Virus record (IMG/VR): IMGVR_UViG_3300032323_001387 | Coordinates: 64,001-128,000 of that record | Reading direction: 5' to 3' (one strand) | Source: a virus | DNA: 64,000 nucleotides | Part shown: positions 6,672 through 44,594 of the stretch, piece after piece | How the letters are laid out: each line of letters opens with the position of its first letter | How positions within the stretch are numbered: position 1 is the first letter of the stretch | Position numbers and translations under genes: made by a program | Notes under the pieces: generated by a model | The model's database searches: none | The model's input: the letters and a program-made list of their open reading frames with translations, nothing else | What the model was told of the DNA's origin: nothing

Positions 6672-9600
6672 CGACCGATCCTAATGTTGCTGTCAGTGAT
6701 TTCTGAAATAACTATAATGTCATTTACATTTGCTACGCTAGTAACAACTTCATTCCTATCTGGTTGAATTTGGAATAGCGTACCGAATTTACTTTCCTGA
6801 TTTAATGGAACAATTACCACACTGCTTAAATCTGTACTTAAACTTGTATGTATGTATGCTGCCAATTCTGTGAAATAAAATGTTTCCCCAAAGCTAAAAT
6901 TGCCCGGAGTAAAAAAGGTATCAACTGCGGCAATTACTTTGCTTTTTATTTCGCTGTCTGTTAATTTACTTTTTATATTTTTAACCACTTTGAATTGTGC
7001 TTGAAATTCCTTGTCTGACAAATTGCCAAATAAAGGTTTGTATTTTACCGGATGAAATATAATCTCATCAGTCATCATCTTATAACTTAGTAAACCAGAA
7101 AAACTATTTCTTAATTCTTCTGATGTTTGCGGTAAGGGTGCGAGTACATTAGTATCAGCAGCTCTTTTCCATGATGTGTAATCATCATTATATGTCTTAG
7201 TTAACACATAGACGTCAATGATGTTTGTTAGACTCGGATCCAGTGACTGGTCTATTTCTACCGAGTGTTCCCATTTAAACGGAACGGAGTTAATGCCCGG
7301 AACTACTTTTACTACACTTTCTGGTGTCGATACTTCTACCGGTACAAGATAACTAAAATCGCCTTCTTCGTAGTTAACTAAATTTAATCTGCTATCACGT
7401 ACTAGCGAAATAAAGTGTTCAGGATCGTCGGGTAAAAAGTCATTGTCTATGTCCAATGGGGTAACTTTAACTTTACTGTTATCAGTGTATCCATCATCAT
7501 AAACATAGTAACCGCTGATCTTATAAGATTTAGATTCTTGTATTTTATTATTGGCGCCCATTTGTAACAGACTAATAGTATCTTTACTTAATGATGGGAA
7601 ACTAGGATTGAACGTAGGACTCCAGTTAATGTTATAGAATCTAATAAGCTCATCGCTGCCGAAGATATAGTCAAGCTGTCGAATAGTAATCTTCCAGCCT
7701 TGACCATCTCTTATACATGCAATCAACCATTCATTATTATCACTTGTTCTATTCCAAGTTGATTCAACGTCGACAAGACTGTTGATCACTATCCATCTAG
7801 GAGTAAGGTTATCAAATTTCAATGCAAAATTTTCTTTTGCATTTAATTTATCGATAATTGTAGCTCTAGTTAAATCATCAAAAACTCGTGTAAATGGAGG
7901 CAATATTTCTTTGATTAAATCCAAAGACGTTATAGATTTACTGATCTCAACAGTACCCATACCGTTTACCAGTAAACCAGTATAAACGTAATCAATGTTT
8001 TCAATACCAAGACCATCACCTTTAATATCATATACGTTGGCCCAGCGATTAACTCCTTCCGGTGTTTGCAATCTCAATACAGAACCTGGTCTCAACGAAC
8101 GCAATTCAGCGCCAGTGGTAAAGCCCAACTTAACAGGAGTAGCGTTACCGTTAGATTCCGAAATATAACCATTGCTGCTATTGGCATCATTATATGCAAC
8201 TCTCCAGCGGTAGTCCAACACTTTATAAACTTTAGAGCCAGCGGTATGGCTTGCGGCTGCTGTTCCTTGTGCGGCTCTTTGAACACCAATGAAGGTCGAA
8301 TTTTGACTATTTTGCTGTAACTCTCTGTAAGTGAACAATTCATCATCGATCATTAACATGCCGCCATCGATGTCAAAGTTATCGTATGGGTCTGTTGTGT
8401 TTGTATGATCAACTACCATTGAACTGAAAATATCATTTACACCGATTGCATTAGTCAACGTTGTATAGTAAATTGTTTTTCCAATATTAACTGTCGGAAA
8501 ATAATTTAATGCGGCATTGCCTGTTACGTTGGTTAAATTTAATTTACCATAATAAAAATTCAATAGGCCAACGTTGCTTAATTTACTTTCGATATATTCA
8601 TCTAATAAATCAACTGTGCGCCTTGTAATGTCATCTGGAACAACTGTGTTCTTAACAGATTCTTCTCTGTACAAATAACCATCATCGGCAAATTCTATCA
8701 ATGGACGATTCTTACCTGTAGGATCTTTTAAATCAACATAACGACTGTGGCCACTGAATGTTCTATTTTCTGCCTTAAGAACTAATACGTCATTGTTTAG
8801 CGTTGGCAGGAATCCGTTGTAATCATCTGCGGTAACCATTCTATTTTTGCTATAGAATGCTTCTGGTGCATTACGTTTAATTTCGTCAACTGTTTCAGAT
8901 GGCAAGCCAGTGACCATATTGTCTTGCAATTCCATTGTCAGTGACAATGTATGTGTTTGATTATCGGCGTTGCGATAGCTGATATCAAAAGTAACGTTCG
9001 TAATTTCTCCAGACTTGACTCTAATAAAATTATTCTCTGCGGTTCTATACCAGACGCGAATATTACCAGTAGGAACATTAGTAAACGTTCCGTCACCAAA
9101 CTTGATGCTAGTTATGTCAGCATCACTGTACAATACTTCGTAGAGATCTTTATTTGCTGCGCCGTATTCATTGACAACAATGTTACTAAAGTCTAAATTG
9201 CTTACACGAGTCCATGTCTTAATAACAGATCCGTTTTCGTCTATTGTTTGTACGTGGAAATCTTCTTCACTGATATTATCAGTCATTGGAATATCAATGA
9301 CTGCATTGGCTGTTGGACTTAATAGAGTTTGTACTGTATTAGCAATATAACCTTGTTTGGCTAAAAAGAAAAAACCCGTTTTTGTGCTGCCAACACCTTT
9401 ACCGTCATTACGATACAACACACTAAATGCTGTATTGTAATCCGGCTCTACTTGTGAAATAATTCCCAAAGTGTTAATATCAACCGGTACCAAATCAAAA
9501 TTCAAACTGTATCCATCTACTACAGCGCGAACCGGGAAGTTAACAATAGAATTTGTATTGTTAAAATTATATACTTCGTAGACTGTGCTGTTTATGCTAT

Positions 9601-10135
9601 TTGTTGTTCGCTTAACTGGATTACCGAATTTGTTGTTGTCGCCAAAGGCTGCATTCATGACTCTGATGAATCGTTCGTATTCTAATTCGCTGGGATCGCT
9701 GCCCCATTGAATAGTTTTATTAGATAAGTTTACACCGGTGCTATCAAGAATCTGATCACTGCTTACTGCACTTACTACTTTCATAAATCCCTGTGCAGGA
9801 CGAACACGTTTTGGTTTGTATGAAAGCATACGTGCAATACGTAACACACTTTCACGTTTTTCTGCTGTGTCTAAAATATTTTCTCTAGCATTCAAATCCA
9901 TACGGAATGCCAAGTTCTGCCCTACATATGCAACTAAATCTAGTAACGCAATGAATTCACTGTTTTGGATGTAATCGTTAAATTCCTCAGGATAGTTAGT
10001 TTGCATGTAATTAACCATGCTTTGACGCAGTGTGTCAAAGTCATAGCTAATGAATTCGGCATTTTTAAAGCTGGAATAAACTATACTCCAATCTTCTGCT
10101 CCATATAAATTTTCTTGTCTAATTGCTTTTGGCAT
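6668..10135 (-). CDS. Baseplate wedge subunit, T4 gp6-like (1155 aa)
   Basis: N-terminal YDFDTLRQSMVNY...SEFIALLDLVAYVGQNLAFRMDLNARENILDTAEKRESVLRIARMLSYKP, plus IKFGDG and NRMVTADDY, are typical gp6/baseplate-J-like motifs; follows a gp25-like gene. Confidence 0.88.
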   Translation of the reverse strand: MPKAIRQENLYGAEDWSIVYSSFKNAEFISYDFDTLRQSMVNYMQTNYPEEFNDYIQNSEFIALLDLVAYVGQNLAFRMDLNARENILDTAEKRESVLRIARMLSYKPKRVRPAQGFMKVVSAVSSDQILDSTGVNLSNKTIQWGSDPSELEYERFIRVMNAAFGDNNKFGNPVKRTTNSINSTVYEVYNFNNTNSIVNFPVRAVVDGYSLNFDLVPVDINTLGIISQVEPDYNTAFSVLYRNDGKGVGSTKTGFFFLAKQGYIANTVQTLLSPTANAVIDIPMTDNISEEDFHVQTIDENGSVIKTWTRVSNLDFSNIVVNEYGAANKDLYEVLYSDADITSIKFGDGTFTNVPTGNIRVWYRTAENNFIRVKSGEITNVTFDISYRNADNQTHTLSLTMELQDNMVTGLPSETVDEIKRNAPEAFYSKNRMVTADDYNGFLPTLNNDVLVLKAENRTFSGHSRYVDLKDPTGKNRPLIEFADDGYLYREESVKNTVVPDDITRRTVDLLDEYIESKLSNVGLLNFYYGKLNLTNVTGNAALNYFPTVNIGKTIYYTTLTNAIGVNDIFSSMVVDHTNTTDPYDNFDIDGGMLMIDDELFTYRELQQNSQNSTFIGVQRAAQGTAAASHTAGSKVYKVLDYRWRVAYNDANSSNGYISESNGNATPVKLGFTTGAELRSLRPGSVLRLQTPEGVNRWANVYDIKGDGLGIENIDYVYTGLLVNGMGTVEISKSITSLDLIKEILPPFTRVFDDLTRATIIDKLNAKENFALKFDNLTPRWIVINSLVDVESTWNRTSDNNEWLIACIRDGQGWKITIRQLDYIFGSDELIRFYNINWSPTFNPSFPSLSKDTISLLQMGANNKIQESKSYKISGYYVYDDGYTDNSKVKVTPLDIDNDFLPDDPEHFISLVRDSRLNLVNYEEGDFSYLVPVEVSTPESVVKVVPGINSVPFKWEHSVEIDQSLDPSLTNIIDVYVLTKTYNDDYTSWKRAADTNVLAPLPQTSEELRNSFSGLLSYKMMTDEIIFHPVKYKPLFGNLSDKEFQAQFKVVKNIKSKLTDSEIKSKVIAAVDTFFTPGNFSFGETFYFTELAAYIHTSLSTDLSSVVIVPLNQESKFGTLFQIQPDRNEVVTSVANVNDIIVISEITDSNIRIGR

Positions 10136-22448: not shown

Positions 22449-23306
22449 ATGGCAACATCACAAGCAAACCCACTAGCTAAACAGTACTTGACTAACAAGG
22501 AATTACTCAAAGAAATTCATCTTAGTAAGAACAACTACAGTAGCTATACAAAACCCGAATATGGTAATTATGATTTAATTTTAGCCGATGTGTCTAAAAT
22601 TAACATAAGAACTATAGCAGAAGCTAAACGCAACCATGCACTCAAACTAAGCCAACTTGCTTTAGCAGAAGCTCAAAAAATTAACCCAAAAGCTAAATTA
22701 GCAGAAGTTGAAATTGACTATAAAAAAGTCGCAAAAACTGACGTTGTATTTAGAATCATGACACATGATCATGTGCCATTGGAACCTGGACGCAAGAAGA
22801 CTCCAAAAAATCGTGGAGATCATCACAGCAAATGCAACTTTCCTCCCTATCAACATTTTAAATTTGAAGAAGTTGACGGAGAAGAAAAACTCGTCTGCGT
22901 TGGCAAAAGTCACTGGAAAGGTGACATGGACACTGGAGAGTTTTGCTTAGATGGCGAGATAACAAAAAAGCTTGCCAAGAGTTATATGCTACTCTGCGAA
23001 CGCTACAGTATGCGATTTAACTGGCGTGGTTATACATACGTAGATGAAATGCGTAGCCAAGCATTACTACAACTAAGTCAAATCGGTTTACAGTTTGACG
23101 AATCAAAATCACAAAATCCTTTTGCTTATTATACAGCGGCCATTGACAACAGTTTTACTCGAATCCTTAATATTGAAAAGAAAAACCAAATGATTCGAGA
23201 TGACTTGCTAATTGAATATGGTAGCAATCCTAGTTTTTCTAGGCAATTTGAACACGAAGCTAATATGCGCGACGAACGTGATCGTCTGGCAGGATTGAAA
23301 GATTAA
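22449..23306 (+). CDS. Late-transcription sigma factor, T4 gp55-like
   Basis: YLTNKELLKEI...NWRGYTYVDEMRSQALLQL...FDESKSQNPFAYYTAAIDNSFTRILNIEKK; T4-like synteny gp55-gp47-gp46. Confidence 0.85.
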   Translation: MATSQANPLAKQYLTNKELLKEIHLSKNNYSSYTKPEYGNYDLILADVSKINIRTIAEAKRNHALKLSQLALAEAQKINPKAKLAEVEIDYKKVAKTDVVFRIMTHDHVPLEPGRKKTPKNRGDHHSKCNFPPYQHFKFEEVDGEEKLVCVGKSHWKGDMDTGEFCLDGEITKKLAKSYMLLCERYSMRFNWRGYTYVDEMRSQALLQLSQIGLQFDESKSQNPFAYYTAAIDNSFTRILNIEKKNQMIRDDLLIEYGSNPSFSRQFEHEANMRDERDRLAGLKD

Positions 23307-23314
23307 GGACTTAT

Positions 23315-24334
23315 ATGACAGATATGTTTAAGAAAGCGGCTGTTTTTACTGACATCCATTTTGGTATGCGACAAAATTCAAAATCACACAATGATGATTG
23401 TATGGGTTTTGTTAAATGGTTTTGTGCTACTGCTCAAAAGGAAGGCTGCGACACTGCTATCTTTATGGGCGACTGGCATCACCATCGTGCTACAGTTAAC
23501 GTCAGTACGCTAAACTATACGGTGGATGCCATTGATTATATCAGCAAACACTTTGAACGCTTCTTCTTCATTCCTGGCAATCACGACTTGTACTATCGTG
23601 AGAAGCGCGACTTAACAAGTATTCCATTTATCAGAAATCAGAAAAACGTTGTTTTGGTTAATGATGTTTATACCGAAGGCGGCGTTAGTCTTGTGCCTTG
23701 GCTAGTAGGAGATGAATGGACTAGCATGAAACGTCTTGACAGTCGTTATGTGTTTGGCCACTTTGAACTTCCTAACTTTAAAATGAACGCTATGGTTGAA
23801 ATGCCCGACCATGGTGGACTGAGCAGCGAACACTTTCCTAATCAAGAATATGTTTTCTCCGGTCACTTCCATCTGCGTCAACGTAAAGGTAATGTGCAGT
23901 ATATTGGCAATGCTTTCCCGCATAATTACAGTGATGCATGGGATGATGATCGTGGCATGATGATTATGGAATGGGGTACTGCTCCTAGATACATTGCTTG
24001 GCCAGATGCGCCCAGTTTCAAAACTATTGATCTTACAAGATTGATTGAAGATCCTGACAAGTATATGAATAAAAATAGTTTCCTGCGTGTTACCTGCGAT
24101 GCTGATATTAGTTTTGAAGAAGCAACATTCTTAAAAGAGAATTGGATGGAAACATACAATCTTCGAGAACTAAACCTTATTCCAGCCAAGCGTGAAGAAC
24201 ATACACAAGATTGGAGTGGTGATGTACACTTTGAGTCAGTGGATCAAATTGTTGTCAGTCAACTTACAGCAATTGAAAGCGATGTAGTTGATCGCCAAAC
24301 GCTCATTGACATTTACAACGGACTTCATGTATAA
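23315..24334 (+). CDS. Recombination nuclease, gp47 / Mre11-SbcD-like
   Basis: Phosphoesterase motifs DIHFG, GDWHH, GNHD, GHF, SGHFH. Confidence 0.92.
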   Translation: MTDMFKKAAVFTDIHFGMRQNSKSHNDDCMGFVKWFCATAQKEGCDTAIFMGDWHHHRATVNVSTLNYTVDAIDYISKHFERFFFIPGNHDLYYREKRDLTSIPFIRNQKNVVLVNDVYTEGGVSLVPWLVGDEWTSMKRLDSRYVFGHFELPNFKMNAMVEMPDHGGLSSEHFPNQEYVFSGHFHLRQRKGNVQYIGNAFPHNYSDAWDDDRGMMIMEWGTAPRYIAWPDAPSFKTIDLTRLIEDPDKYMNKNSFLRVTCDADISFEEATFLKENWMETYNLRELNLIPAKREEHTQDWSGDVHFESVDQIVVSQLTAIESDVVDRQTLIDIYNGLHV

Positions 24335-24343
24335 TACACAACG

Positions 24344-26119
24344 ATGATTAAACTTAAAAATTTAACTGTAAAAAACTTTCTTTCAGTTGGTAACGTTACT
24401 CAAGGTTTGAGATTTGACCAACATGGTCTTACTCTTGTGTTGGGTAATAACTTAGACTTGGGCGGTGATGGTAGTCGTAATGGCACAGGTAAAACTACTA
24501 TCGTCAACGCATTGAGCTATGTGTTATATGGCAATGCTCTTACTAACATCCGCAAAGATAACCTCATCAACAAAACTAACACTAAAAACATGTTAGTCAC
24601 TTGCGAGATGGAAATTAACGGCCATAACTATAAAATTGAACGCGGGCGTAAACCCAACGTGTTGCGATTTATTGTAGATGATCAAGAAATTGACAAAGGC
24701 GAAACAGAAGAGCAACAAGGCGAGAATAAAGAAACCCAAGCAGAAATTGAACGTCTACTTGGGATGAGTCATGATATGTTCAAACATATTTGTGCGTTAA
24801 ATACTTACACTGAACCATTTTTGAGTCTTAAGACAAATGATCAGCGTGATATTATTGAACAACTTCTTGGCATTACGCAACTTAGTGAAAAGGCCGCTTT
24901 GCTTAAAGAGCTTATTAAGAACACTAAGGACCAATCCAAAGAAGAAGAATATAGAATTAAGGCAGTATCAGATGCAAACACTAAAATTAAAAACTCTATT
25001 GACGACTTGGAACGTCGTAGTCGTCTTTGGCAGACCAAACAAACCGACGAGCTCGAAAAGCTGGCAGCGGCCATCGACGAACTACTAAACATTGATATTA
25101 CACAAGAGTTAGAAAATCATAAAGCACTGGCATTATGGCAGGCTAATGAAAAAGAACTCAAGCGTCATAACAAAGATTTAGCCACACATCAAAGTGCAGT
25201 AAAGAGAATTACGCAACAACTCGCTGACTTGGCCAGTGCTCAGGGACATGCTTTGGAACACAAGTGTCATGCTTGTGGGCAAGATGTACACGACGACAAA
25301 CAAGCCAGTATGTTAGATGATATCAATAATGCTATTGCTACACTAACTGAAGAACTTGACAACGAATCAAAAGCACTCAAAAAAGTAGAAAAACAAATTT
25401 TGGATCTGGGTAAGTTGGGCAGTGCACCTAAAGTAAAATATTCTAACATCGACGATGCTGTCAATCATAAGAGTACTTTAGAAACAGCACAGGATCAGTT
25501 TGAACGCAGAGCATTAGATATTGATCCATATGTTGAACAGATTGAACATCTTAAAACAACTGCTTTGGAAGAAATTAATTTTGATACTATCAATGCGTTG
25601 ACTAAATTGCAAGAGCATCAAGAGTTCTTGCTTAAACTGTTGACCAGTAAAGATAGTTTTATTCGTAAGCGTATTATTGAACAGAACTTGGCTTACCTAA
25701 ATCATAGACTTGCTTATTATTTAGAAAAGCTAGCGTTACCGCATGAAGTAAAATTCCGCAGTGACTTGGAAGTAGACATTACGCAACTTGGACAAGAGTT
25801 TGATTTTGATAACTTGAGTCGAGGTGAACGTAATAGACTTATTTTGGGCTTGTCGTGGGCATTCAGAGATGTCTATGAGAGTTTGAATAGGCCAATCAAT
25901 TTGTTGTTTATCGACGAAATGATTGACAGTGGTATGGACGCCAATGGCGTTGACAACAGTTTGGGCTTGCTTAAAAAGATGGCTCGAGAAAATCGGAAGA
26001 ATATCTTCTTGATTAGCCACCGAGATGAACTGGTCGGAAGAGTAAATAACATACTACAAGTTGTTAAAGAAAACGGCTTTACAACTTTTAATACAGATAT
26101 AGAAATGGTAGAGGCATAA
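24344..26119 (+). CDS. Recombination ATPase, gp46 / Rad50-SbcC-like
   Basis: Walker A NGTGKTT, coiled coil with CHAC zinc hook, LSRGE signature, FIDE Walker B, ISH. Confidence 0.93.
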   Translation: MIKLKNLTVKNFLSVGNVTQGLRFDQHGLTLVLGNNLDLGGDGSRNGTGKTTIVNALSYVLYGNALTNIRKDNLINKTNTKNMLVTCEMEINGHNYKIERGRKPNVLRFIVDDQEIDKGETEEQQGENKETQAEIERLLGMSHDMFKHICALNTYTEPFLSLKTNDQRDIIEQLLGITQLSEKAALLKELIKNTKDQSKEEEYRIKAVSDANTKIKNSIDDLERRSRLWQTKQTDELEKLAAAIDELLNIDITQELENHKALALWQANEKELKRHNKDLATHQSAVKRITQQLADLASAQGHALEHKCHACGQDVHDDKQASMLDDINNAIATLTEELDNESKALKKVEKQILDLGKLGSAPKVKYSNIDDAVNHKSTLETAQDQFERRALDIDPYVEQIEHLKTTALEEINFDTINALTKLQEHQEFLLKLLTSKDSFIRKRIIEQNLAYLNHRLAYYLEKLALPHEVKFRSDLEVDITQLGQEFDFDNLSRGERNRLILGLSWAFRDVYESLNRPINLLFIDEMIDSGMDANGVDNSLGLLKKMARENRKNIFLISHRDELVGRVNNILQVVKENGFTTFNTDIEMVEA

Positions 26120-26120
26120 A

Positions 26121-26330
26121 ATGACAGAAGAAAACACAACACCAGTAAACACACAAGAAGAATTGGTTAAACAATTTCAAGTTTATATTGAAGAAAACGA
26201 AAAGTTTACAACTAAAAAAGTCAAAGCGGCAGCAGGTCGTGCTCGTAAGGCACTACAAGAAGTTGCTAAACTAGTTAAACAAAGACGTAAAGAGATTACG
26301 GAAGAAAAGGCAGCATTGTCAGCTAAATGA
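26121..26330 (+). CDS. Small basic protein, histone H1-like Hc1 family
   Basis: EKFTTKKVKAAAGRARKALQEVAKLVKQRRKEITEEK pattern. Confidence 0.7.
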   Translation: MTEENTTPVNTQEELVKQFQVYIEENEKFTTKKVKAAAGRARKALQEVAKLVKQRRKEITEEKAALSAK

Positions 26331-26755
26331 CATGGTTGTTCGAAGGAACTTCGGTAGAATCACTTCCTGAGGATTGTGTTGGTTTTGTTTATCTCATTAC
26401 CAATACAATCACAGGCCGCAAATACATCGGCAAAAAATTAGCAAAATTCTCTAAGACCACTTATAAAACAGTAAAACTAAAAAACGGTACTAAAAAGAAG
26501 AAAAAAATTAGAAGCAAAATCGACAGTGACTGGATGGACTATTATGGTTCTTCCGACGAACTTAACAAAGATATACTCACTCTTGGCAAAGAAAATTTCA
26601 CCCGCGAAATACTACACTACTGCAAATCTAAGGCCCATACTTCATACCTCGAAGCTAAAGAACAATTTGATAGAAAAGTTCTTGAATCAACTGACTACTA
26701 CAATGGCCATATATCCGTTAGAGTACACGGATCCCATATCATAAACAAAATTTAA
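26327..26755 (+). CDS. GIY-YIG endonuclease (142 aa) with a Lys-rich insertion
   Basis: GFVYLITN...KYIGKK, YYGSS, FTREIL, YLEAKEQ, YYN. Confidence 0.88.
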   Translation: MTWLFEGTSVESLPEDCVGFVYLITNTITGRKYIGKKLAKFSKTTYKTVKLKNGTKKKKKIRSKIDSDWMDYYGSSDELNKDILTLGKENFTREILHYCKSKAHTSYLEAKEQFDRKVLESTDYYNGHISVRVHGSHIINKI

Positions 26756-26786
26756 ATCGGCAACAGCCACAAAGACACTACTGATA

Positions 26787-27270
26787 ATGCCAGCGCCGGC
26801 AAGTTAAATAGGCGCCCGAATCCGTTCTGATGTGTGACGGTAGGAAATTCTGAGCAGTAGCAGAGACATGATTGCCACTACCCCAATGATGTTGGGACGA
26901 AGCGTTAGTCTTGAAAGACGCTGGCATGTGTATGTATAGACAAAAAGAGTGGGCACTGTTGAGTCATTACAACCCACAAGAATTAAGCTGTTTATCTATT
27001 GGCTACTTAATTCTGCGTTATATTTGAAGAGCTACATAAAAAGGTACAGCGTAACCGCCTTTACTAGTAATAGTTGTAGTGATAGATTACGATAATGGGC
27101 CTCTGGCATGTTATTTTTACTTTTGCCCTTAACAGGGCGAAGTACGACTGCAAAACCTTGGCATATATTATCTTATATAGTATCGTTGAATATGTTAGAA
27201 AAGAATTTTAAGAATTGTGTTTTGTTAGCGTAAGCGTATAAAACATAATTCTTGTTGTTCTATGAACAAC
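26787..27270 (+). ncRNA. Candidate large structured non-coding RNA (unassigned class)
   Basis: ORF-free 515 bp gap in an otherwise gene-dense genome. About ten stems found by eye, with GTAA/TAAC tetraloops and G-U pairs that work only on the + strand. See findings. Confidence 0.6.
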
Positions 27271-27504
27271 TTAAAATCTTTCTTGAGTTAATGTTTGTGT
27301 TGGCTTAATGCCTTTATCTATACTAATTTTCTCTTTTAGTACTTTAAGGAATATTCTCTTCTCTTCATGGGTTAAATTCCATACTTGTTCATAACTCTGT
27401 CCTGAGTATATGGCCAATGTTGCAACATCTTCTATAAGGGCTTTTGACTCTTTGTCTAAGTTGTTTAATAACTTAAGAACTTCAGGGCCTGACTTTGCTG
27501 TCAA
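27271..27504 (-). CDS. Baseplate/tail assembly chaperone C-terminal extension (gp51-like), probably expressed by -1 frameshift from the upstream gene
   Basis: Only a TTG start with no RBS; lies in the -1 frame of the upstream gene right after a T TTT TTC heptamer. Confidence 0.7.
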   Translation of the reverse strand: MTAKSGPEVLKLLNNLDKESKALIEDVATLAIYSGQSYEQVWNLTHEEKRIFLKVLKEKISIDKGIKPTQTLTQERF

Positions 27505-27509
27505 AAGCC

Positions 27510-28346
27510 TTATGCGAAAAAAGTTGTTGGGTTTAAATCTATATTGGATTCGTAGTCAGTGCTACAGCCTTGGCAGTTGACATTAAAATTCTTTTTCATG
27601 CCTTTTTGTGCCAATGACATGATGCCGTTTTCAATCTTCTTGAATTCAGGCCGGCTTATTTGTTCTACCCATTCTTTAATGTTTGCGCTATCAGTTACAG
27701 TGACACCATCAGGTAACAACACTGTATCGATACAAGCACTTATAATCAATAAATTTTGATTAGTTAATGTATGATAGCTCTTTTGCAGTATGTTAACTTT
27801 TTCTTTTTCATCCATATTGCCTTGTTCAGCAAGTTGAATGTTTCTAACTTCTTCGTACTGCACCCAATTTAAGTTTAATAGTTGTTTTACGTTAACTGGT
27901 TTAATAAAAACTTTGATACCATCGTCTAATACAATTGGTTCAATCTTATCTACAGTAGTGATGCTGGATATAAAATGATTTAAATTTAACACAGATTCGT
28001 TTTTGGTATTGCAGCTAGGACACTGTGTTTCGATATCCAAGTCTTCGCCGTATGTACAACGTCTAATGGCCAGCAACACAGCATCTAAGTCAATAGCAGG
28101 CATTGTATCTACGCTAGTAATACTGGGTGCACAGCTATTAAGTAATTGTGTGATAGCAGTTCCGTTTAACAGTGCATCAGCGTTTTTCATCAATAGTTCG
28201 TCTTTGGCTGTCATTGGGTATACAGCAATTTCGCCCATGTCATTGAAGTCAGCAGGTTTAGTGTCATAGTATTGACCTTGACTGGGTAGCTTAATCCATA
28301 TTCCTGGTTTTCTGAAATATTGTTTTAGTGGATTGTTTTCTGACAT
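27510..28346 (-). CDS. Baseplate hub assembly chaperone, T4 gp26-like
   Basis: NPLKQYFRKPGIWIKLPSQG...VYPMTAKDEL...DLDAVLLAIR...CPSC...CQGC...NPTTFF; start moved to ATG 28346 (GGAG RBS). Confidence 0.8.
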   Translation of the reverse strand: MSENNPLKQYFRKPGIWIKLPSQGQYYDTKPADFNDMGEIAVYPMTAKDELLMKNADALLNGTAITQLLNSCAPSITSVDTMPAIDLDAVLLAIRRCTYGEDLDIETQCPSCNTKNESVLNLNHFISSITTVDKIEPIVLDDGIKVFIKPVNVKQLLNLNWVQYEEVRNIQLAEQGNMDEKEKVNILQKSYHTLTNQNLLIISACIDTVLLPDGVTVTDSANIKEWVEQISRPEFKKIENGIMSLAQKGMKKNFNVNCQGCSTDYESNIDLNPTTFFA

Positions 28347-28358
28347 GGTTTTACTCCG

Positions 28359-28389
28359 ATAAATAAACTTAGTATAAATGTATTTATAC
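28359..28389. promoter_or_regulatory. Overlapping late promoters for the divergent chaperone and tape-measure genes
   Basis: ATAAATA (+, 28359-28365) and TATAAATA (-, 28388-28381); the latter lies in the inverted repeat GTATAAAT-GT-ATTTATAC. Confidence 0.65.
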
Positions 28390-28406
28390 CATAAAAACAT
28401 ACTTTA

Positions 28407-38773: not shown

Positions 38774-41700
38774 ATGCCATTAATTAAAGCCCGGTCAAGT
38801 TCTATTATGGACAACGTTGACCTACGTGGTCAACCAACGGCAGAAACGGCTCAACAATCGGTTAATACTAACCAATTAGCCAGTACTGCTTATGTTAGAA
38901 CAGCAGTTGCTGAATTAGTCGATTCTGCTCCAGGTTTGCTAGATACATTGAATGAACTAGCTGCCGCGATTGCAGATGATGCAAATTTTGCAACAACCGT
39001 TGCAAATAGTATTGCTACAAAAGTACCATTAGATGGTAGCGTAGCAATGACAGGTGAACTGACATTGTCAGGTACACCGACACAAAATTTAAGTGCAACA
39101 ACAAAACAGTACGTCGACGATTTAGTTGACAGTCAGATGATCTACAGCACAGATGATGTTGCTGAAGGTACAACTAACTTATATTACACAGCTACTCGTG
39201 TAAAAAATGCAATTAGTTTAACTAGTGACAACACTACTGTATTAGACTATGATAGTGCAAGTGGTCAATTTACATACAATCACCCAACAAGTGATGGTGT
39301 TCTAGAAGGCGCAACAAACTTATATTTCACAACAGCTCGTGCTCGTAACAGCATTAGCATGAACAGTGATGATGGTACTATCATTTCTTATAGTAGCAGC
39401 ACTGGTGAAATTACATTCACAACCCCAGATACAGACAAGATCGTCGAAGGCGCAACAAACTTATATTTCACAACAGCTCGTGCTCGTAATTCAATCAGCA
39501 ATGGCGCAAACATTGACTATGATGCAAGCAGTGGTATTGTTAGTACACAAGCTGCGGTTTGGAGTGTTAACGGTCAAGAACACACAGTTGTTTTAGATAC
39601 AGACGACATTAGCGAAGGTAGTGCAAACTTATACTTTACGAATGCTCGCGCTCGTAGTGCAGTAAGTTTAACAACTGATAACAGCAATATTTTAAGTTAT
39701 AACTCTGGTACAGGTACTTTAACATTTACAACACCTAGTACAGACGCTATTTCTGAAGGCAGCGTAAACTTATATTACACTGATACTCGTGTACGTGCTG
39801 CAATCAGCGCCAGCGGTGATATCAGCTACAACCAAGCTACAGGTAACTTTAGCTATTCAACACCAACTACAGACGGTGTTAACGAAGGATCTAGCAATTT
39901 GTATTTTACAAATGCAAGAGCCCGCAATTCAGTAAGTTTAACATCTGACAACAGCTCAGTTTTAAGTTATGACAATTCTACTGGTGAATTTACATTCACT
40001 TTAGGTAACCAAACTACTGATGATGTACAAGAAGGTACAAATAACTTGTATTATTTGGACGGTCGTGCTCGCGCAGCTATTAGCCTAAGCAGTAACTGGG
40101 GTAATGTCAGCTACGACAATACAAGTGGTGTTATCACTGTTAGTGCGCCTAGTACAGATGACGTAACAGAAGGTACAAACTTGTATCACACAACAGCCCG
40201 CGCTCGAGGTGCAGTAAGTGCTACAGATGCTGGCGGTGACGGCAGTTTCAGCTATGACAGCGCAACTGGTGTATTCACTTATACTGGTCCAAGTGATAGC
40301 GAAGTACGTGCTCACCTAAGCGCAGTTGATGCTGGCGGTGACGGCAGTTTCAGCTATGACAGCGCAACTGGTGTATTCACTTATACTGGTCCAACTGCTA
40401 CTGAAGTTCGTGCTCATTTGAGTGCTACAAGTGCTTCTGGTGCTCAGTATGACAGCAACACTGGTGTTATTAGCTTGTCTAATATTCCAAATAGCAGCCT
40501 AACAAACGATAGCGTAACAGTTAACGGCGCTACAGTGGCATTAGGTGGTAGCACAAGCTTTGACACTGACAGTGTAAATGAAGGTGCAACAAATCAGTAC
40601 TTTACACAGACACGTGCTCGTAATTCTATCAGCTTAACAAGTGACAACACTAGCGTTCTGGATTATGACAGTATCACTGGTGAATTCACATTCAGTCTAG
40701 GTAACCAAACTACTGACGACGTTGCAGAAGGCGCAACAAACTTATACTTTACAGACACTCGTGCCCGTAATGCAGTAAGCGCAGTAGACGCAGGCGGCGA
40801 TGGTAGCTTCAGCTATGACGCAGCAACTGGTACATTCACTTATACTGGCCCAAGTGCAGCAGAAGTACGTGCACACCTAAGCGCAACAAGCGCATCTGGT
40901 GTAACATACAACAGCTCTACTGGCGTAATTGCTCTTGCAAGTATTCCAAATAGCAGCTTGACAAACAGCGAAATCACATTGAACGGTACAACCGTTTCTC
41001 TTGGTGGTAGCAACAGCTTTACTACAGACGCTGTTAATGAAGGTACAACTAACCAATACTACACATCAACTCGCGTTCGTAATGAACTAAGCGCAGACGA
41101 TGTTGAAGGCGTTGGTGCATTCAGCTATAACAGCAACACTGGCGAGTTTTCTTTTGACGCAAGTGCAGTAGTTGCAACAGTTAACGGCCAAAGCGGTTAT
41201 GTAACTTTAGATACAGATGACATCAACGAAGGTTCTGGTAACCTATACTACACAACAGCCCGCACTCGTGCAGACGTTAGTGGTGGTACAGGTGTAACAT
41301 ACACACAGTCAACTGGTGTATTTGCAATCGGTCAAGCAGTTGGTACATCCGACGACGTTACATTCAACGATGTAACAGTTAGTGGTGATTTAACAGTTAA
41401 CGGTACATTGACAACAATCAACAGTACTGATTTAACAGTTACAGATAAGAACATCACTATTGCCGATGGCGCAGCAAACGCAGCCGCAGCAAACGGTGCT
41501 GGTATTACAGTAGATGGTGCTAATGCAACTATCACCTATGCTAGTGCAACAGACAGCTGGGATTTCAACAAAGATGTAAGCATCACTGGTGGTTTAACAC
41601 TAACAGAAGATCTAACAGCTCCTACATTCATTGGTGATCTAACAGGTGACGTAACTGGTACAGTAAGTGACATCAGCAACCACAATACTGATGCTCTAAC

Positions 41701-43900
41701 AGAAGGTTCTACAAACTTATACTTCACAGACACTCGTGCTCGTAACGCAGTAAGTCTAACAAGTGACAAGACTAGTGTATTGAGCTACAATGCAAGCACA
41801 GGCGCATTTACATTTGCTATCGCAAATGCATCTACTAGTGATATTGCAGAAGGCACAAACCTATACTACACTGACACTCGCGCTCGCGCAGCAGTAAGTG
41901 TTTCTGACAATGGTGGCGATGGTAGCCTAAGCTATGACAGCGCAACTGGTGTAATCACATACACAGGCCCAAGTGCTAGCGAAGTTCGTGCACATTTGAG
42001 CGCAACAAGCGCATCTGGTGTAACATACAGCAGCTCTACTGGTGTAATTGCTCTTGCAAGTATTCCAAATAGCAGCTTGACAAACAGTTCTGTTACAGTT
42101 AATGGTGCAACAGTAAGTTTGGGCGGCAGCACAAGTTTCGATACTGACAGTGTAACTGAAGGTGCTGGCAACTTGTACTTCACAGATGCTCGAGCAGCAG
42201 CAGCTATTAGCTTGACAACAAGCGATAGTTCTGTATTGGACTACAACAGTTCAACTGGTGAGTTTACATTCAGCTTAACAGGTATCGACACAGATGAAGT
42301 TACAGAAGGCGCAACCAACTTGTACTTCACTACTGCTCGTGCTCGTAACAGCGTAAGCGCAGTAGACGCAGGTGGCGATGGTAGCTTCAGCTATGATTCA
42401 GCAACTGGTGCATTCACATACACTGGCCCAAGTGCAGCAGAAGTACGTGCACACCTAAGCGTAACAGATTTGGGTGGCGATGGTGCTTTATCTTATGACA
42501 GCGCAACTGGTGTAATCACTTATACTGGTCCAAGTGCTAGCGAAGTTCGTGCTCACCTAAGTGCTACAAGTGCTTCTGGTGTAACATATGACAATGCAAC
42601 TGGTGTAATTGCTCTTGCAAGTATTCCAAATAGCAGCTTAACTAATGATAGTATCACTATCAACGGCACAACCGTTGCATTGGGTGCATCTAACAGTTTC
42701 GATACTGGCAGTGTTACTGAAGGTACAAACTTGTACTATACAGACACTCGAGTTCGTAACGCAGTTAGCTTGGTAACAAGCGACAGCACTGTATTCGACT
42801 ACGATCCAGCTACTGGTGTATTCACTTACAGCGCAACTGGTTTGGACACAGACGAAGTTGCAGAAGGTACTACAAACCTATACTTTACACAAGCTCGCGC
42901 TCGTGACAGTATCAGCACAAACGGCTGGCAAATCAGTTACGACAACGCCACTGGTGTAATTAGTATAGCTACTCCAGATACAGATGACGTATCTGAAGGT
43001 ACAACTAACCAGTATTTCACATTAGCCCGTGCACGTACAGCAGTCAGCTTAACAACTGATAACACTGATGCAATGAGCTATGACAATACAACTGGTATTT
43101 TCACGTTCACATTAAACAGTGTTGATACAGATGAGATCGCAGAAGGTGCTACAAGTTTATACTTCACAACAGCTCGTGCTCGTAATAGTGTAAACAACGG
43201 TGCAAATATCGATTATGATAGCAGCACTGGTACAATCAGCACACAAGCTGCGGTTTGGAGCGTAAATGGTCAAGAACACGCCGTTGTTCTAGATACAGAT
43301 GACATCAGCGAAGGTAGCACAAACCTATACTTCACAGATGCTCGTGCAAGAAGTGCTATCACTCTAACTACAGATGACAGCAACATTCTAAGCTACAATA
43401 CAGGTACAGGTGCTCTAACATTCGTTACACCTACAACTGACAGTATCGAAGAAGGTGCAGTAAATCTATACTACACTGACACTCGTGCAGACGGTCGTAT
43501 TGCAGCAGCAAGTATCCGTGACCTATCCGATGTAGATGCAGATGATGCACTACAAGACGGTTATACGCTAGTTTGGAGTAGTGTACGCGGCGAATTCGTT
43601 CCACAGAACATCGCTGTAACAGCTACTACATTAAACTTTACTGGTGACGGTACAACAACTAGCTTCAGCACTGGTGTTGAAGTTTCAAGCATTGATAATA
43701 CTCAAGTGTTTATCAACGGTTTGATTCAAGCGCCAACATACTCTTATACATTAAGTACAACAAGTAATGTAACAAGTATTGTGTTTGACACAGCTCCAGA
43801 AGCCAACGATTATATCTTCGTTCGTGTAAGCTCTACTAGCACATTGACTGCTGGTGGTATTCTAAACGAAAATAGTAACGTCGACGGCGGTACGTTCTAA
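38774..43900 (+). CDS. Large repetitive fibre protein (1708 aa)
   Basis: N-terminal fibre anchor (LVDSAP..LDTLNELAAAI); many TDxxxEGxxNLY(F/Y)TxxRAR repeats; Ser/Thr-rich. Confidence 0.8.
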   Translation: MPLIKARSSSIMDNVDLRGQPTAETAQQSVNTNQLASTAYVRTAVAELVDSAPGLLDTLNELAAAIADDANFATTVANSIATKVPLDGSVAMTGELTLSGTPTQNLSATTKQYVDDLVDSQMIYSTDDVAEGTTNLYYTATRVKNAISLTSDNTTVLDYDSASGQFTYNHPTSDGVLEGATNLYFTTARARNSISMNSDDGTIISYSSSTGEITFTTPDTDKIVEGATNLYFTTARARNSISNGANIDYDASSGIVSTQAAVWSVNGQEHTVVLDTDDISEGSANLYFTNARARSAVSLTTDNSNILSYNSGTGTLTFTTPSTDAISEGSVNLYYTDTRVRAAISASGDISYNQATGNFSYSTPTTDGVNEGSSNLYFTNARARNSVSLTSDNSSVLSYDNSTGEFTFTLGNQTTDDVQEGTNNLYYLDGRARAAISLSSNWGNVSYDNTSGVITVSAPSTDDVTEGTNLYHTTARARGAVSATDAGGDGSFSYDSATGVFTYTGPSDSEVRAHLSAVDAGGDGSFSYDSATGVFTYTGPTATEVRAHLSATSASGAQYDSNTGVISLSNIPNSSLTNDSVTVNGATVALGGSTSFDTDSVNEGATNQYFTQTRARNSISLTSDNTSVLDYDSITGEFTFSLGNQTTDDVAEGATNLYFTDTRARNAVSAVDAGGDGSFSYDAATGTFTYTGPSAAEVRAHLSATSASGVTYNSSTGVIALASIPNSSLTNSEITLNGTTVSLGGSNSFTTDAVNEGTTNQYYTSTRVRNELSADDVEGVGAFSYNSNTGEFSFDASAVVATVNGQSGYVTLDTDDINEGSGNLYYTTARTRADVSGGTGVTYTQSTGVFAIGQAVGTSDDVTFNDVTVSGDLTVNGTLTTINSTDLTVTDKNITIADGAANAAAANGAGITVDGANATITYASATDSWDFNKDVSITGGLTLTEDLTAPTFIGDLTGDVTGTVSDISNHNTDALTEGSTNLYFTDTRARNAVSLTSDKTSVLSYNASTGAFTFAIANASTSDIAEGTNLYYTDTRARAAVSVSDNGGDGSLSYDSATGVITYTGPSASEVRAHLSATSASGVTYSSSTGVIALASIPNSSLTNSSVTVNGATVSLGGSTSFDTDSVTEGAGNLYFTDARAAAAISLTTSDSSVLDYNSSTGEFTFSLTGIDTDEVTEGATNLYFTTARARNSVSAVDAGGDGSFSYDSATGAFTYTGPSAAEVRAHLSVTDLGGDGALSYDSATGVITYTGPSASEVRAHLSATSASGVTYDNATGVIALASIPNSSLTNDSITINGTTVALGASNSFDTGSVTEGTNLYYTDTRVRNAVSLVTSDSTVFDYDPATGVFTYSATGLDTDEVAEGTTNLYFTQARARDSISTNGWQISYDNATGVISIATPDTDDVSEGTTNQYFTLARARTAVSLTTDNTDAMSYDNTTGIFTFTLNSVDTDEIAEGATSLYFTTARARNSVNNGANIDYDSSTGTISTQAAVWSVNGQEHAVVLDTDDISEGSTNLYFTDARARSAITLTTDDSNILSYNTGTGALTFVTPTTDSIEEGAVNLYYTDTRADGRIAAASIRDLSDVDADDALQDGYTLVWSSVRGEFVPQNIAVTATTLNFTGDGTTTSFSTGVEVSSIDNTQVFINGLIQAPTYSYTLSTTSNVTSIVFDTAPEANDYIFVRVSSTSTLTAGGILNENSNVDGGTF
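40226..40394 (+). repeat. Two identical 67 nt copies at 102 nt period inside the fibre gene
   Basis: GATGCTGGCGGTGACGGCAGTTTCAGCTATGACAGCGCAACTGGTGTATTCACTTATACTGGTCCAA at 40226-40292 and 40328-40394. Confidence 0.85.
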
Positions 43901-43920
43901 TTAGAAATAATTAGTACATA

Positions 43921-43946
43921 AAAAGGGCTCTTCGGAGCCCTTTTTT
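43921..43946 (+). terminator. Intrinsic terminator, UUCG loop
   Basis: AAAAGGGCTC-TTCG-GAGCCCTTTTTT. Confidence 0.9.
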
Positions 43947-43994
43947 AACGATCTTTGAATTTGTATAAATATAAATATATTATTACACACCATC

Positions 43995-44495
43995 ATGCCA
44001 ATTTTCCGAGGTAAAAATTTTGTTAGCGCAGTATCCGACTATAAAGATAGTGTTCGCCTAGCCACACGATCTAATATAAATGTTAGCGCAAATATCTTTA
44101 CAGTAGATGGGGTATCGTTATCAGACAAAGATAGAGTATTATTAGCCGGGCAAATTGCACAAAATCAAAATGGCATATATTCATGGTCCGTTTCTACAAG
44201 TAAATTAACAAGAGCAACTGATGCAGATAGTATTTTTGAACTAAGCAGCGGCAATAAAGTATATGTAGAAGAAGGAAATACACTGGGCAAAAGTTCTTGG
44301 ACATTAGTAACACCCGGGGTAATTACTCCTGGTATTACAGCATTAGTTTTTGCTAAAGAAAGCAGAATTAATACCACAGATGTAAGTGGAAACTACGGCG
44401 GCCCCGGAAAAACATTAGAGATATCAGTAGACGAGACGGGCGAAATCAATTCTATCACTGAAGTAGATATTGATATCGACGGCGGCAACTTCTAA
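43995..44495 (+). CDS. Tail-fibre-domain protein (166 aa)
   Basis: DYKDSVRLAT...VDGVSL...DRVLLAGQ...QNGIY...TRATDAD module common in phage fibres; ends IDGGNF. Confidence 0.7.
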   Translation: MPIFRGKNFVSAVSDYKDSVRLATRSNINVSANIFTVDGVSLSDKDRVLLAGQIAQNQNGIYSWSVSTSKLTRATDADSIFELSSGNKVYVEEGNTLGKSSWTLVTPGVITPGITALVFAKESRINTTDVSGNYGGPGKTLEISVDETGEINSITEVDIDIDGGNF

Positions 44496-44594
44496 TTTAA
44501 CACCTGTTTCTTACACATAGTACTTTGTTTTGGCTAAATACTAGACGAATAGTAGAAATCGAACGTTCTATAATTTCAAGGGGTATATACTCAA

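What the first reader, a model, noticed from the sequence alone, without database searches (positions are those of the whole stretch)
26327..27270. Small GIY-YIG nuclease followed by a ~500 nt highly structured non-coding element: candidate nuclease-RNA system
Seen: 26756-27270 is by far the longest ORF-free gap in the window (others are under ~130 bp) and is packed with stems. These include CCGT/ACGG (26822-26840); CCCAA-TGATG-TTGGG (26882-26896); GTCT-TGAA-AGAC (26908-26919); GTGGG/CCCAC (26949-26977); AGAATTAAG/CTTAATTCT (26979-27014); GCTACA/TGTAGT (27031-27080) enclosing AAAGGT/GCCTTT and ACTA-GTAA-TAGT; TACTTTTGCCCT-TAAC-AGGGCGAAGTA (27118-27144); a 14 bp stem 27210-27223/27240-27253 capped by GC-GTAA-GC; and GTTGTTC-TAT-GAACAAC. 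A nested long-range closure is possible (ATGCCAG 26787-26793 with CTGGCAT 27103-27109, GCCC 26814-26817 with GGGC 27097-27100). G-U pairs and GNRA loops work on the + strand, co-directional with the nuclease, and a TAAATA late-promoter core sits at 26805-26810. The nuclease is a bare catalytic domain with a very basic insertion (KTTYKTVKLKNGTKKKKKIRSK) and no obvious C-terminal DNA-recognition domain. Known: HEARO/omegaRNA-IscB and large phage RNAs such as GOLLD and ROOL show that nuclease-adjacent or phage-borne large RNAs exist. Inference: this is an unclassified large ncRNA that may form an RNP with the GIY-YIG protein (guide, scaffold or inhibitor). Alternatively it is a structured origin element serving the neighbouring gp46/gp47 recombination machinery.
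Basis: partly seen in the sequence, partly recalled or inferred. Interest (0 to 1): 0.88.

Follow-up and report, generated by a model that had tools for sequence, protein, structure and literature searches.

The report
Twin-box jumbo-phage RNA beside resolvase slot
The gene-free gap behind a small DNA-cutting enzyme gene of an uncultured giant lake phage encodes a real, knotted RNA of about 380 bases; it is not a dedicated guide for that enzyme but belongs to a family also present in several copies in lab-grown E. coli giant phages, and my best (unproven) guess is that it helps start DNA replication.

Summary
Real RNA, wrong partner. Window 26788-27166 is a covarying, doubly pseudoknotted RNA; its first 144 nt hit Rfam Polynucleobacter-1 (46.9 bits, cut-off 37), the rest is uncatalogued. 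Two 7-nt boxes at its 3' end change fast between phages yet stay identical to each other (93/102 loci). The GIY-YIG is probably the phage's junction resolvase: in relatives the same slot holds a PD-(D/E)XK resolvase or endonuclease VII instead, mutually exclusively, and RNA types A-C occur with either of the first two enzymes. A homologous RNA (shared compensated pseudoknot, twin boxes) lies beside endonuclease VII in cultured 121Q, BF and GAP32, which carry 4-5 co-oriented copies, nearly all with their own promoter and mostly far from any resolvase; the box is genome-specific. Best guess (0.36): a ColE1-RNA-II/T4-like origin pre-primer RNA; close rival (0.30): a trans-acting ornate RNA; nuclease guide or partner 0.08. 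No expression data could be obtained for this copy.

The parts
26788..27166 (+). Conserved structured RNA, about 380 nt (type A of the family; extended Polynucleobacter-1 RNA)
   Evidence: Homologues in 63/80 GIY-YIG loci by iterative nhmmer; covarying pairs against a tree-based null; alignments
26788..26931 (+). 5' domain = Rfam RF01718: hairpins 26793-97/26811-15, 26822-26/26836-40, 26848-52/26861-65; junction 26873-77/26922-26 enclosing 26882-86/26892-96 and 26902-05/26918-21
   Evidence: cmscan 46.9 bits, cut-off 37, E 6e-7, full model
26949..27014 (+). Two hairpins 26949-53/26973-77 and 26979-87/27006-14; loop 26994-99 pairs with 27082-87 (pseudoknot 2)
   Evidence: Significant covarying pairs in both hairpins and in the knot
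27017..27080 (+). Core: pseudoknot 1 (27017-21 with 27051-55), helices 27031-36/27075-80 and 27040-45/27057-62
   Evidence: Pair 27021-27051 significant; the same knot is compensated in types A/B, D and E
27101..27110 (+). Box 1 (CUC + 7-nt box, UGGCAUG here)
   Evidence: Identity covariation with box 2
27118..27144 (+). Hairpin between the boxes
   Evidence: Covarying pair 27124-27139; present in all five types
27156..27165 (+). Box 2 (CCU + 7-nt box, UGGCAUA here)
   Evidence: the twin-box pattern occurs once in the 172-kb record and never in 207 kb of shuffled DNA
27167..27270 (.). AT-rich tail with hairpins 27210-53 and 27254-70: terminators and/or single-stranded-DNA signals
   Evidence: In homologues C-GNA-G triloop hairpins occur at 5.3/kb in this tail, 0.06/kb elsewhere, 0.03/kb in the RNA body; the window's own loops are GUAA and UAU, not the GNA type
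26327..26755 (+). Small GIY-YIG nuclease (SegE-like, phrog_447); inferred junction resolvase
   Evidence: slot shared with PD-(D/E)XK and endonuclease VII
26121..26330 (+). 69-aa Hc1 histone-like protein, translationally coupled to the nuclease
   Evidence: PF07432 E 7e-11
23315..26119 (+). gp47- and gp46-like recombination nuclease genes, behind a gp55-like sigma factor (22449-23306)
27271..28400 (-). Convergent 77-aa gene and gp26-like baseplate hub gene that close the slot

Best explanation
The element is a cis-acting, RNA-primed replication-initiation element of GAP32/RaK2/PA5oct-like jumbo phages, working like ColE1 RNA II or the T4 oriF/oriG transcript. SHOWN: a + strand structured RNA gene with a fixed 3' module (box, hairpin, identical box), then AT-rich DNA and, in most homologues, DNA-type hairpins; own sigma70-like promoters and 4-5 co-oriented, widely spaced copies in cultured relatives; independence from the neighbouring nuclease. 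INFERRED: the folded transcript leaves its 3' end free to stay hybridised to its template as a persistent R-loop; box 1 of the RNA can pair with the template strand of box 2 and/or both boxes are read by a phage-encoded initiation factor, which is why they must match; the 3' end is trimmed (RNase H) and extended, and the displaced strand with its hairpins loads helicase and primase. The GIY-YIG is the phage's junction resolvase and is a neighbour, not the RNA's effector.
For: Copies at 90, 193, 247, 327 kb in 121Q, five each in BF, GAP32 and XaC1, all on one strand; smallest-gap test p about 0.005 for BF and GAP32, 0.05-0.07 for 121Q and XaC1, not independent. An extended -10 promoter upstream of 17 of 21 phage copies and of the island copy. 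Tail AT 0.67 against 0.54 in the body; C-GNA-G triloop hairpins about 85-fold enriched in the tail, on both strands, in 78/102 loci; that such loops are stable in DNA rather than RNA is my own knowledge. Box mismatches at the 3' side are mostly G/A or U/C, the direction tolerated if box-1 RNA pairs with box-2 template. Copies on other replicons: an integrative island in 2 of 5426 E. coli genomes and a complete 28-kb phage. Frequent swapping of RNA types against flanking core genes, as replicon modules do. RNase HI gene beside the gap in phage Phosso. T4 uses at least five dispersed origins, oriF/G being promoter plus AT-rich unwinding element with a persistent R-loop (PMC3016281). The PA5oct paralogue ncRNA004 is a rare transcript, 0.02-0.08% of phage reads (PMC7318152), unlike abundant ornate RNAs.
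Against: No replication-linked skew change: skew follows the coding strand on both sides. Only one copy was detected in complete 345-360-kb lake phages, two in RaK2, and the PA5oct copies are unevenly spaced. The box is shared by all copies of a genome (CGUCAA 121Q and XaC1, CGUCAG BF and GAP32, CUUCAA RaK2), which cis pairing alone does not require and which needs a trans reader or conversion between copies. No promoter was found for the window's copy. T4 origins share no sequence and need no folded RNA. The PA5oct element's homology to the family rests on position only. The island gene's initiator-like hit is weak (E 0.02). An earlier agent (e1-5370389) judged a relative unlike a replication primer. 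Nothing here shows an R-loop or nascent DNA.
Confidence: 0.36

Rival explanations
1. A trans-acting ornate RNA (GOLLD/ROOL/OLE-like scaffold, decoy or multimer) whose two boxes bind two copies of one phage-encoded protein or pair with one phage nucleic acid; extra gene copies raise dosage.
For: Elaborate pseudoknotted fold with T-loop-like and GNRA loops; genome-specific boxes across old copies; extra box-like motifs in variable loops of type E; promoter-to-hairpin transcription units; host islands could carry it as a decoy; precedents in 10.1101/2024.12.08.627333.
Against: Even spacing and strict co-orientation are not needed in trans; DNA-type hairpins in the tail; no residue of GIY-YIG, Hc1, the 77-aa protein, gp26 or gp46 tracks the boxes; no complement of the boxes inside the RNA; the PA5oct paralogue is not abundant.
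Confidence: 0.3
2. One reading: the RNA forms an RNP with the small nuclease, as guide, scaffold or inhibitor; the twin boxes could direct a dimer to two identical DNA arms of a junction.
For: Adjacent in 71/76 GIY-YIG loci and 76/80 PD-(D/E)XK loci; stays adjacent through local rearrangements (L092, L097, L295); bare catalytic domain with a basic hairpin.
Against: Three unrelated nuclease folds fill the slot; types A, B and C occur with both GIY-YIG and PD-(D/E)XK; 3 of 4 copies in 121Q lie beside other genes; RNAs with no such nuclease nearby (L101, L134, L298); close GIY-YIG relatives without the RNA (5 loci; homologues in 496 cultured phage records, mostly cyanophages, in which Weinberg et al. 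found no such RNA); no avoidance of the own box in flanking DNA.
Confidence: 0.08
3. A selfish or catalytic RNA element (ribozyme or intron-like remnant) that moves or swaps between phages and uses the identical boxes as processing or template-switch sites.
For: Types switch 23-46 times on neighbour trees; several copies per genome and on islands; the 3' modules of both RaK2 copies are identical over about 250 nt.
Against: Never interrupts a gene; fixed in one slot across the clade; no Rfam intron or ribozyme hit; no internal guide complementary to the boxes; no linked reverse transcriptase seen in the fetched loci.
Confidence: 0.1
4. A cis-regulatory 3' element (stabiliser, attenuator, bidirectional terminator) of the sigma-gp47-gp46-nuclease mRNA; boxes homogenised by slippage across the hairpin.
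For: Starts 0-50 nt after a stop codon in most lake-phage loci; no own promoter in types A/B; convergent neighbour.
Against: Stand-alone promoters and divergent orientation in type E and L097; many different upstream genes; fixed differences inside the repeats persist while variable box letters match at 94-100%.
Confidence: 0.08

Closest known systems
Polynucleobacter-1 RNA motif (Rfam RF01718; Weinberg et al. 2010, PMC2864571)
   Same: The 5' 144 nt match the whole model over the cut-off; the supplement already notes a conserved upstream gene with possible homology to a cyanophage gene.
   Different: The model (16 sequences) ends at one third of the RNA; it lacks both pseudoknots and the twin boxes; the paper found it in no cultured phage; types B-E have other 5' domains and no Rfam hit.
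ColE1 RNA II pre-primer (own knowledge) and T4 oriF/oriG R-loop origins (PMC3016281)
   Same: Promoter-driven transcript of some hundred bases, AT-rich DNA behind it, several dispersed sites per phage genome; in ColE1 a folded RNA whose upstream segment pairs with the template of a downstream like-sequence (recalled, not found in the library).
   Different: No sequence relation tested or seen; T4 origins share no motif and need no fold; no antisense RNA I known here; R-loop and priming not shown.
GOLLD, ROOL, OLE ornate RNAs (10.1101/2024.12.08.627333)
   Same: Large, pseudoknotted, phage-borne, unknown function; GOLLD too has a conserved 3' and a variable 5' part.
   Different: No Rfam match; smaller; no tRNA gene in the window; twin co-varying boxes and evenly spread copies are not described for them.
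HEARO / omegaRNA with IscB (OMEGA systems; own knowledge)
   Same: Structured RNA of 350-400 nt beside a compact nuclease gene.
   Different: Nuclease fold differs and is interchangeable; no transposon ends seen; no hypervariable guide; RNA occurs without the nuclease.
Phage junction resolvases: T4 endonuclease VII, RusA/Hjc-like phrog_244; GIY-YIG enzymes I-TevI, T4 SegE, SLX1
   Same: The window's enzyme has the GIY-YIG fold (I-TevI catalytic domain Z 8.5, rmsd 2.3, 75 residues) and takes the genomic place of endonuclease VII or phrog_244.
   Different: No DNA-binding tail, single copy, core-like distribution, so unlike Seg homing enzymes; resolvase activity is inferred from the slot only.

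Membership tests
Polynucleobacter-1 RNA (RF01718) | Score above the gathering threshold over the full model | tested here: met
   46.9 bits vs 37, positions 1-141; 11 of 20 related loci score 75-119
Polynucleobacter-1 RNA (RF01718) | Downstream of the GOS11034 / PSSM2_218-like gene | tested here: inconclusive
   Upstream gene is phrog_447 with many cyanophage homologues; identity with GOS11034 not checked directly
HEARO / omegaRNA-IscB | Match to the HEARO model | tested here: not met
   No hit
HEARO / omegaRNA-IscB | Obligate link to one cognate HNH/RuvC nuclease in a transposon | tested here: not met
   GIY-YIG, PD-(D/E)XK or endonuclease VII neighbours; copies with none
HEARO / omegaRNA-IscB | Variable guide segment that programs cleavage | tested here: inconclusive
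   Only 7-nt boxes vary in concert; no target or avoidance found in flanks; cleavage not testable
GOLLD / ROOL / OLE | Match to their covariance models | tested here: not met
GOLLD / ROOL / OLE | Often near tRNA genes | tested here: not met
   No tRNA in the window; none annotated around cultured copies
GOLLD / ROOL / OLE | High abundance and RNA-only multimers | not testable with these tools
Group I intron with GIY-YIG homing endonuclease | Interrupts a gene and has the P3-P7 core | tested here: not met
   Lies after a stop codon between intact convergent genes; no intron model hit
Seg-type free-standing homing endonuclease | Appended DNA-binding domain and sporadic distribution | tested here: not met
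   142 aa, catalytic domain only; one fixed slot, mutually exclusive with a resolvase in 20 genomes
RNA-primed origin (ColE1 RNA II, T4 oriF/G) | Own promoter upstream | tested here: inconclusive
   Present in 17 of 21 type E phage copies; not found for types A/B or the window
RNA-primed origin (ColE1 RNA II, T4 oriF/G) | AT-rich unwinding element downstream | tested here: met
   AT 0.67 after box 2 vs 0.54 in the RNA; a modest difference in an AT-rich genome
RNA-primed origin (ColE1 RNA II, T4 oriF/G) | Strand-bias shift at the site | tested here: inconclusive
   Cumulative GC minimum 4 kb away, but explained by coding strand
RNA-primed origin (ColE1 RNA II, T4 oriF/G) | Persistent R-loop that primes DNA synthesis; autonomous replication of a clone | not testable with these tools
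   Needs experiment

The most novel reading that the evidence does not exclude
One RNA family, from uncultured lake phages to E. coli phage 121Q, is a folded pre-primer that defines replication origins of a whole jumbo-phage clade, its twin boxes acting as a swappable specificity code read by a genome-specific partner and borrowed by small islands and phages: a sequence-defined, ornate RNA origin in large dsDNA phages.
Probability: 0.33. Interest if true: 0.88.

Novelty: new variant of a known kind. Interest (0 to 1): 0.72.

Why it matters
It turns a 2010 orphan motif of 141 nt into a 380-500-nt RNA family of at least five structural types that is near-universal at one locus in a large jumbo-phage clade, and it links the uncultured lake-phage versions to copies in cultured E. 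coli, Serratia, Cronobacter and Klebsiella phages, so function can be tested now. Identity covariation between two boxes, specific to each genome, is an unusual signature that points to an unknown reader. How these phages start replication is not described in what I could search. As a by-product, a small GIY-YIG family mislabelled 'NAD synthetase' or homing endonuclease is predicted to be a third kind of phage junction resolvase.

Tried and rejected
Group I intron, RNase P, group II intron, box C/D or TIGR-like k-turn, tRNA-pairing and CsrA-site readings of the motifs: considered by eye, none fits the variant boxes or hits Rfam. Intramolecular partner of the boxes: none in types A or B. Target or avoidance of the box in flanking DNA: none. 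Protein residues tracking the boxes in five neighbours: only hypervariable columns. GC skew as origin mark: coding-strand effect. blastn of types A and B against cultured phages: chance hits only. Sequence-only twin-box model R1 and HMMs A-E do not detect the PA5oct, Phosso or SCTP-2 gaps; an early impression of type C boxes on the PA5oct plus strand was dropped, since its paralogues show the element reads on the other strand. Whole-sequence HMMs of type E and types A-D do not cross-detect: the link rests on slot, the compensated pseudoknot, the near-identical core motif and the box-hairpin-box module. Atu_ph07 and XacN1 have no long gap at the slot and no type E match. Foldseek gave no significant match. 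Plasmids: no match. Literature searches found only the 2010 paper for the motif and nothing on this family. Caveats: A/B labels were set by a simple pattern and a few may be wrong; the type D model was built from the loci it counts; genomes for the exclusivity test were chosen for having one of the two enzymes; my covariation null is a home-made R-scape-like test with 12 simulations.

Full report
1. What is there. The window comes from a 172-kb viral record, about half of a jumbo phage genome, whose capsid protein is 66-68% identical to those of PA5oct, BF, GAP32, CBB and Phosso. The operon gp55-like sigma, gp47, gp46, a 69-aa Hc1-like protein and a 142-aa GIY-YIG protein (PF19835, phrog_447) ends at 26755 and faces a 77-aa gene and a gp26-like hub gene. 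The 515-nt gap between them is real and folds better than shuffles on both strands. Rfam gives one hit in the whole window: Polynucleobacter-1 at 26788-26931, 46.9 bits against a cut-off of 37. That motif comes from Weinberg et al. 2010 (PMC2864571), who noted a conserved upstream gene and found it in no cultured phage.

2. The RNA is much longer than the Rfam model. Of 80 viral loci fetched by the GIY-YIG protein, 63 carry a homologous element of about 400 nt on the same strand, mostly 0-50 nt after the stop or after an inserted gene; 8 more carry a different body with the same 3' module (type C); 4 are cut off and 5 have none. In 102 non-redundant type A/B sequences a tree-based covariation test supports helices along the whole length and two pseudoknots (window 27017-21/27051-55 and 26994-99/27082-87). 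G-U exceeds A-C at covarying pairs, which fixes the + strand. The conserved core ends near 27166. In 185,579 prokaryote genomes the 3' module was found only 7 times, mostly on short MAG contigs, and the two longer ones inspected have phage gene context.

3. Twin boxes. The 3' module is box 1, a U-rich linker, a hairpin, then box 2. The 7-nt boxes are identical in 93 of 102 loci; at the three most variable letters identity is 0.95, 1.00 and 0.94 against 0.45-0.53 expected, and these three pairs rank among the strongest signals of the whole alignment. Box letters change 15-35 times on trees of neighbouring proteins, and no residue of GIY-YIG, Hc1, the 77-aa protein, gp26 or gp46 follows them. 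No complement exists inside the RNA and no avoidance in flanking DNA. The window's box (UGGCAU) is unusual for type A and resembles type D boxes.

4. The nuclease is a neighbour, not a dedicated partner. Searching by the RNA first, 63 of 76 true hits have the GIY-YIG within 1.3 kb, 7 have instead a PD-(D/E)XK protein annotated as a RusA-like resolvase (PF24608, phrog_244), 2 have neither, and 4 lack enough flank. Searching by that resolvase, 76 of 80 loci carry an RNA of types A-D, so types A, B and C go with either enzyme. In 20 long genomes the two enzymes are mutually exclusive (7 vs 13). In cultured 121Q, BF and GAP32 the same slot holds endonuclease VII. RNA type switches 46 times on the GIY-YIG tree and 23 times on the gp46 tree (shuffled 63 and 38). 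The protein models as a bare GIY-YIG domain with a long basic beta-hairpin (pLDDT 83; best match I-TevI catalytic domain, Z 8.5). I infer that it is the clade's junction resolvase, like the eukaryotic GIY-YIG enzyme SLX1 in role (own knowledge); activity is untested.

5. The family reaches cultured phages. Beside endonuclease VII, 121Q and BF have an 800-840-nt gap whose opposite strand is conserved in about 70 records of E. coli, Salmonella, Klebsiella, Erwinia, Serratia, Cronobacter and Xanthomonas phages, at 2-5 places per genome. This type E has no Rfam hit and profile HMMs of types A-D do not detect it. It is tied to the window's RNA by the slot, by the same pseudoknot with compensated letters in types A/B, D and E, by a core motif that in two BF copies is nearly letter-identical to type A, and by the box-hairpin-box end. 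I put homology at about 0.85. Copies lie on one strand and widely apart, 17 of 21 have an extended -10 promoter, and only one per genome is next to the resolvase. The box is shared by all copies of a genome and differs between genomes. PA5oct has three co-oriented paralogues of the element beside its resolvase, one being ncRNA004, transcribed at 0.02-0.08% of phage reads (PMC7318152); its homology to the family is positional only. Following a lead from earlier scan notes, I confirmed an intact type E copy with promoter and matched boxes on an integrative island in 2 of 5426 E. coli genomes; a type C copy sits in a complete 28-kb phage.

6. How it most likely works. Dispersed, co-oriented, promoter-driven units followed by AT-rich DNA and by C-GNA-G triloop hairpins on both strands (5.3/kb in the tail, 0.06/kb elsewhere) suggest a cis role in which the DNA behind the RNA becomes single-stranded. 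T4 starts replication from at least five dispersed origins, two of them a promoter plus unwinding element with a persistent R-loop (PMC3016281), and ColE1 uses a folded RNA of similar size for the same end (own knowledge). I therefore favour an origin pre-primer (0.36). Pairing of box-1 RNA with the template of box 2 would explain identity and the direction of the 3'-side mismatches, but not the genome-wide sharing of the box, which needs a trans reader or conversion between copies (the two RaK2 copies have identical 3' ends). Against the model: no skew signal, single detected copies in lake phages, uneven PA5oct spacing, no promoter for the window's copy, and an earlier agent's contrary judgement. 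A trans-acting ornate RNA is nearly as likely (0.30); a mobile or catalytic RNA (0.10), a nuclease partner (0.08) and an mRNA end element (0.08) are less so. No expression data for this copy could be had.

7. Novelty and score. The 5' third is a catalogued orphan; the full RNA, its types, the twin-box code and the link to cultured multi-copy phages are not in Rfam or in papers I could search. Earlier agents of this scan described the lake-phage RNA with twin boxes and the RaK2-type RNA separately; no note holds both. I found the twin boxes before reading those notes. Verdict: new variant of a known kind, interest 0.72: not the RNA-guided nuclease hoped for, but a clade-wide ornate RNA with an odd co-evolving code that is now testable in E. 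coli phages.

Noticed in passing
G000:C1 about 169300-169700 (same record, outside the window): Looks like a two-piece, circularly permuted tmRNA gene (acceptor piece ending in CCA first, then the coding piece with a short tag ending in Ala-Ala-Asn-Ala); seen by eye, not scanned.
   Followed up: no
window 26327-26755 and phrog_447: This GIY-YIG family is annotated 'NAD synthetase' in PHROG and many cyanophage records; the label looks wrong, and its role in cyanophages, which lack the RNA, may also be junction resolution.
   Followed up: partly
L211:2487-3500 (Sinorhizobium phage Phosso): A single-copy 1-kb structured gap between an RNase HI gene and the resolvase gene; not detected by my models.
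   Followed up: partly
L425, L427, L428 (PA5oct 76.0, 12.9, 246.2 kb): Three co-oriented paralogues sharing a 125-nt block; one is the annotated ncRNA004, the other two are unannotated or covered by tiny hypothetical ORFs.
   Followed up: partly
L434:4958-14857 (E. coli island at ffs): Integrase, IS3, a 303-aa gene with a weak initiator-like domain, the type E RNA, a repeat-rich spacer and a DUF488/DUF4326/dual-OB cluster: possibly a satellite or defence island of RaK2-like phages.
   Followed up: partly
L298 (G020, complete 28-kb phage): A small phage with terminase and portal genes carries a type C RNA with its own matched boxes and no resolvase nearby.
   Followed up: partly
L005, L010, L073, L076, L078, L091, L096, L099 and others: The slot between nuclease and RNA, or RNA and gp26, is a hot spot for inserted genes (radical-SAM-like, glycosyl/acyl-modifying and unknown proteins of 85-440 aa).
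   Followed up: no
window 1-10135 (-) and 38774-47420 (+): Very long structural ORFs: a 2851-aa baseplate-like protein running off the window start, a 1155-aa wedge-like protein, and 1708-aa and 941-aa tail-fibre-like proteins with repeated N-terminal segments.
   Followed up: no
window 26121-26330: An Hc1 histone-like protein gene sits between gp46 and the resolvase slot in many relatives of both nuclease types.
   Followed up: partly
L438 and L441 (RaK2 191.6 and 280.0 kb): The two RaK2 copies are identical over about 250 nt of their 3' ends while differing upstream, a sign of recent conversion between copies.
   Followed up: partly
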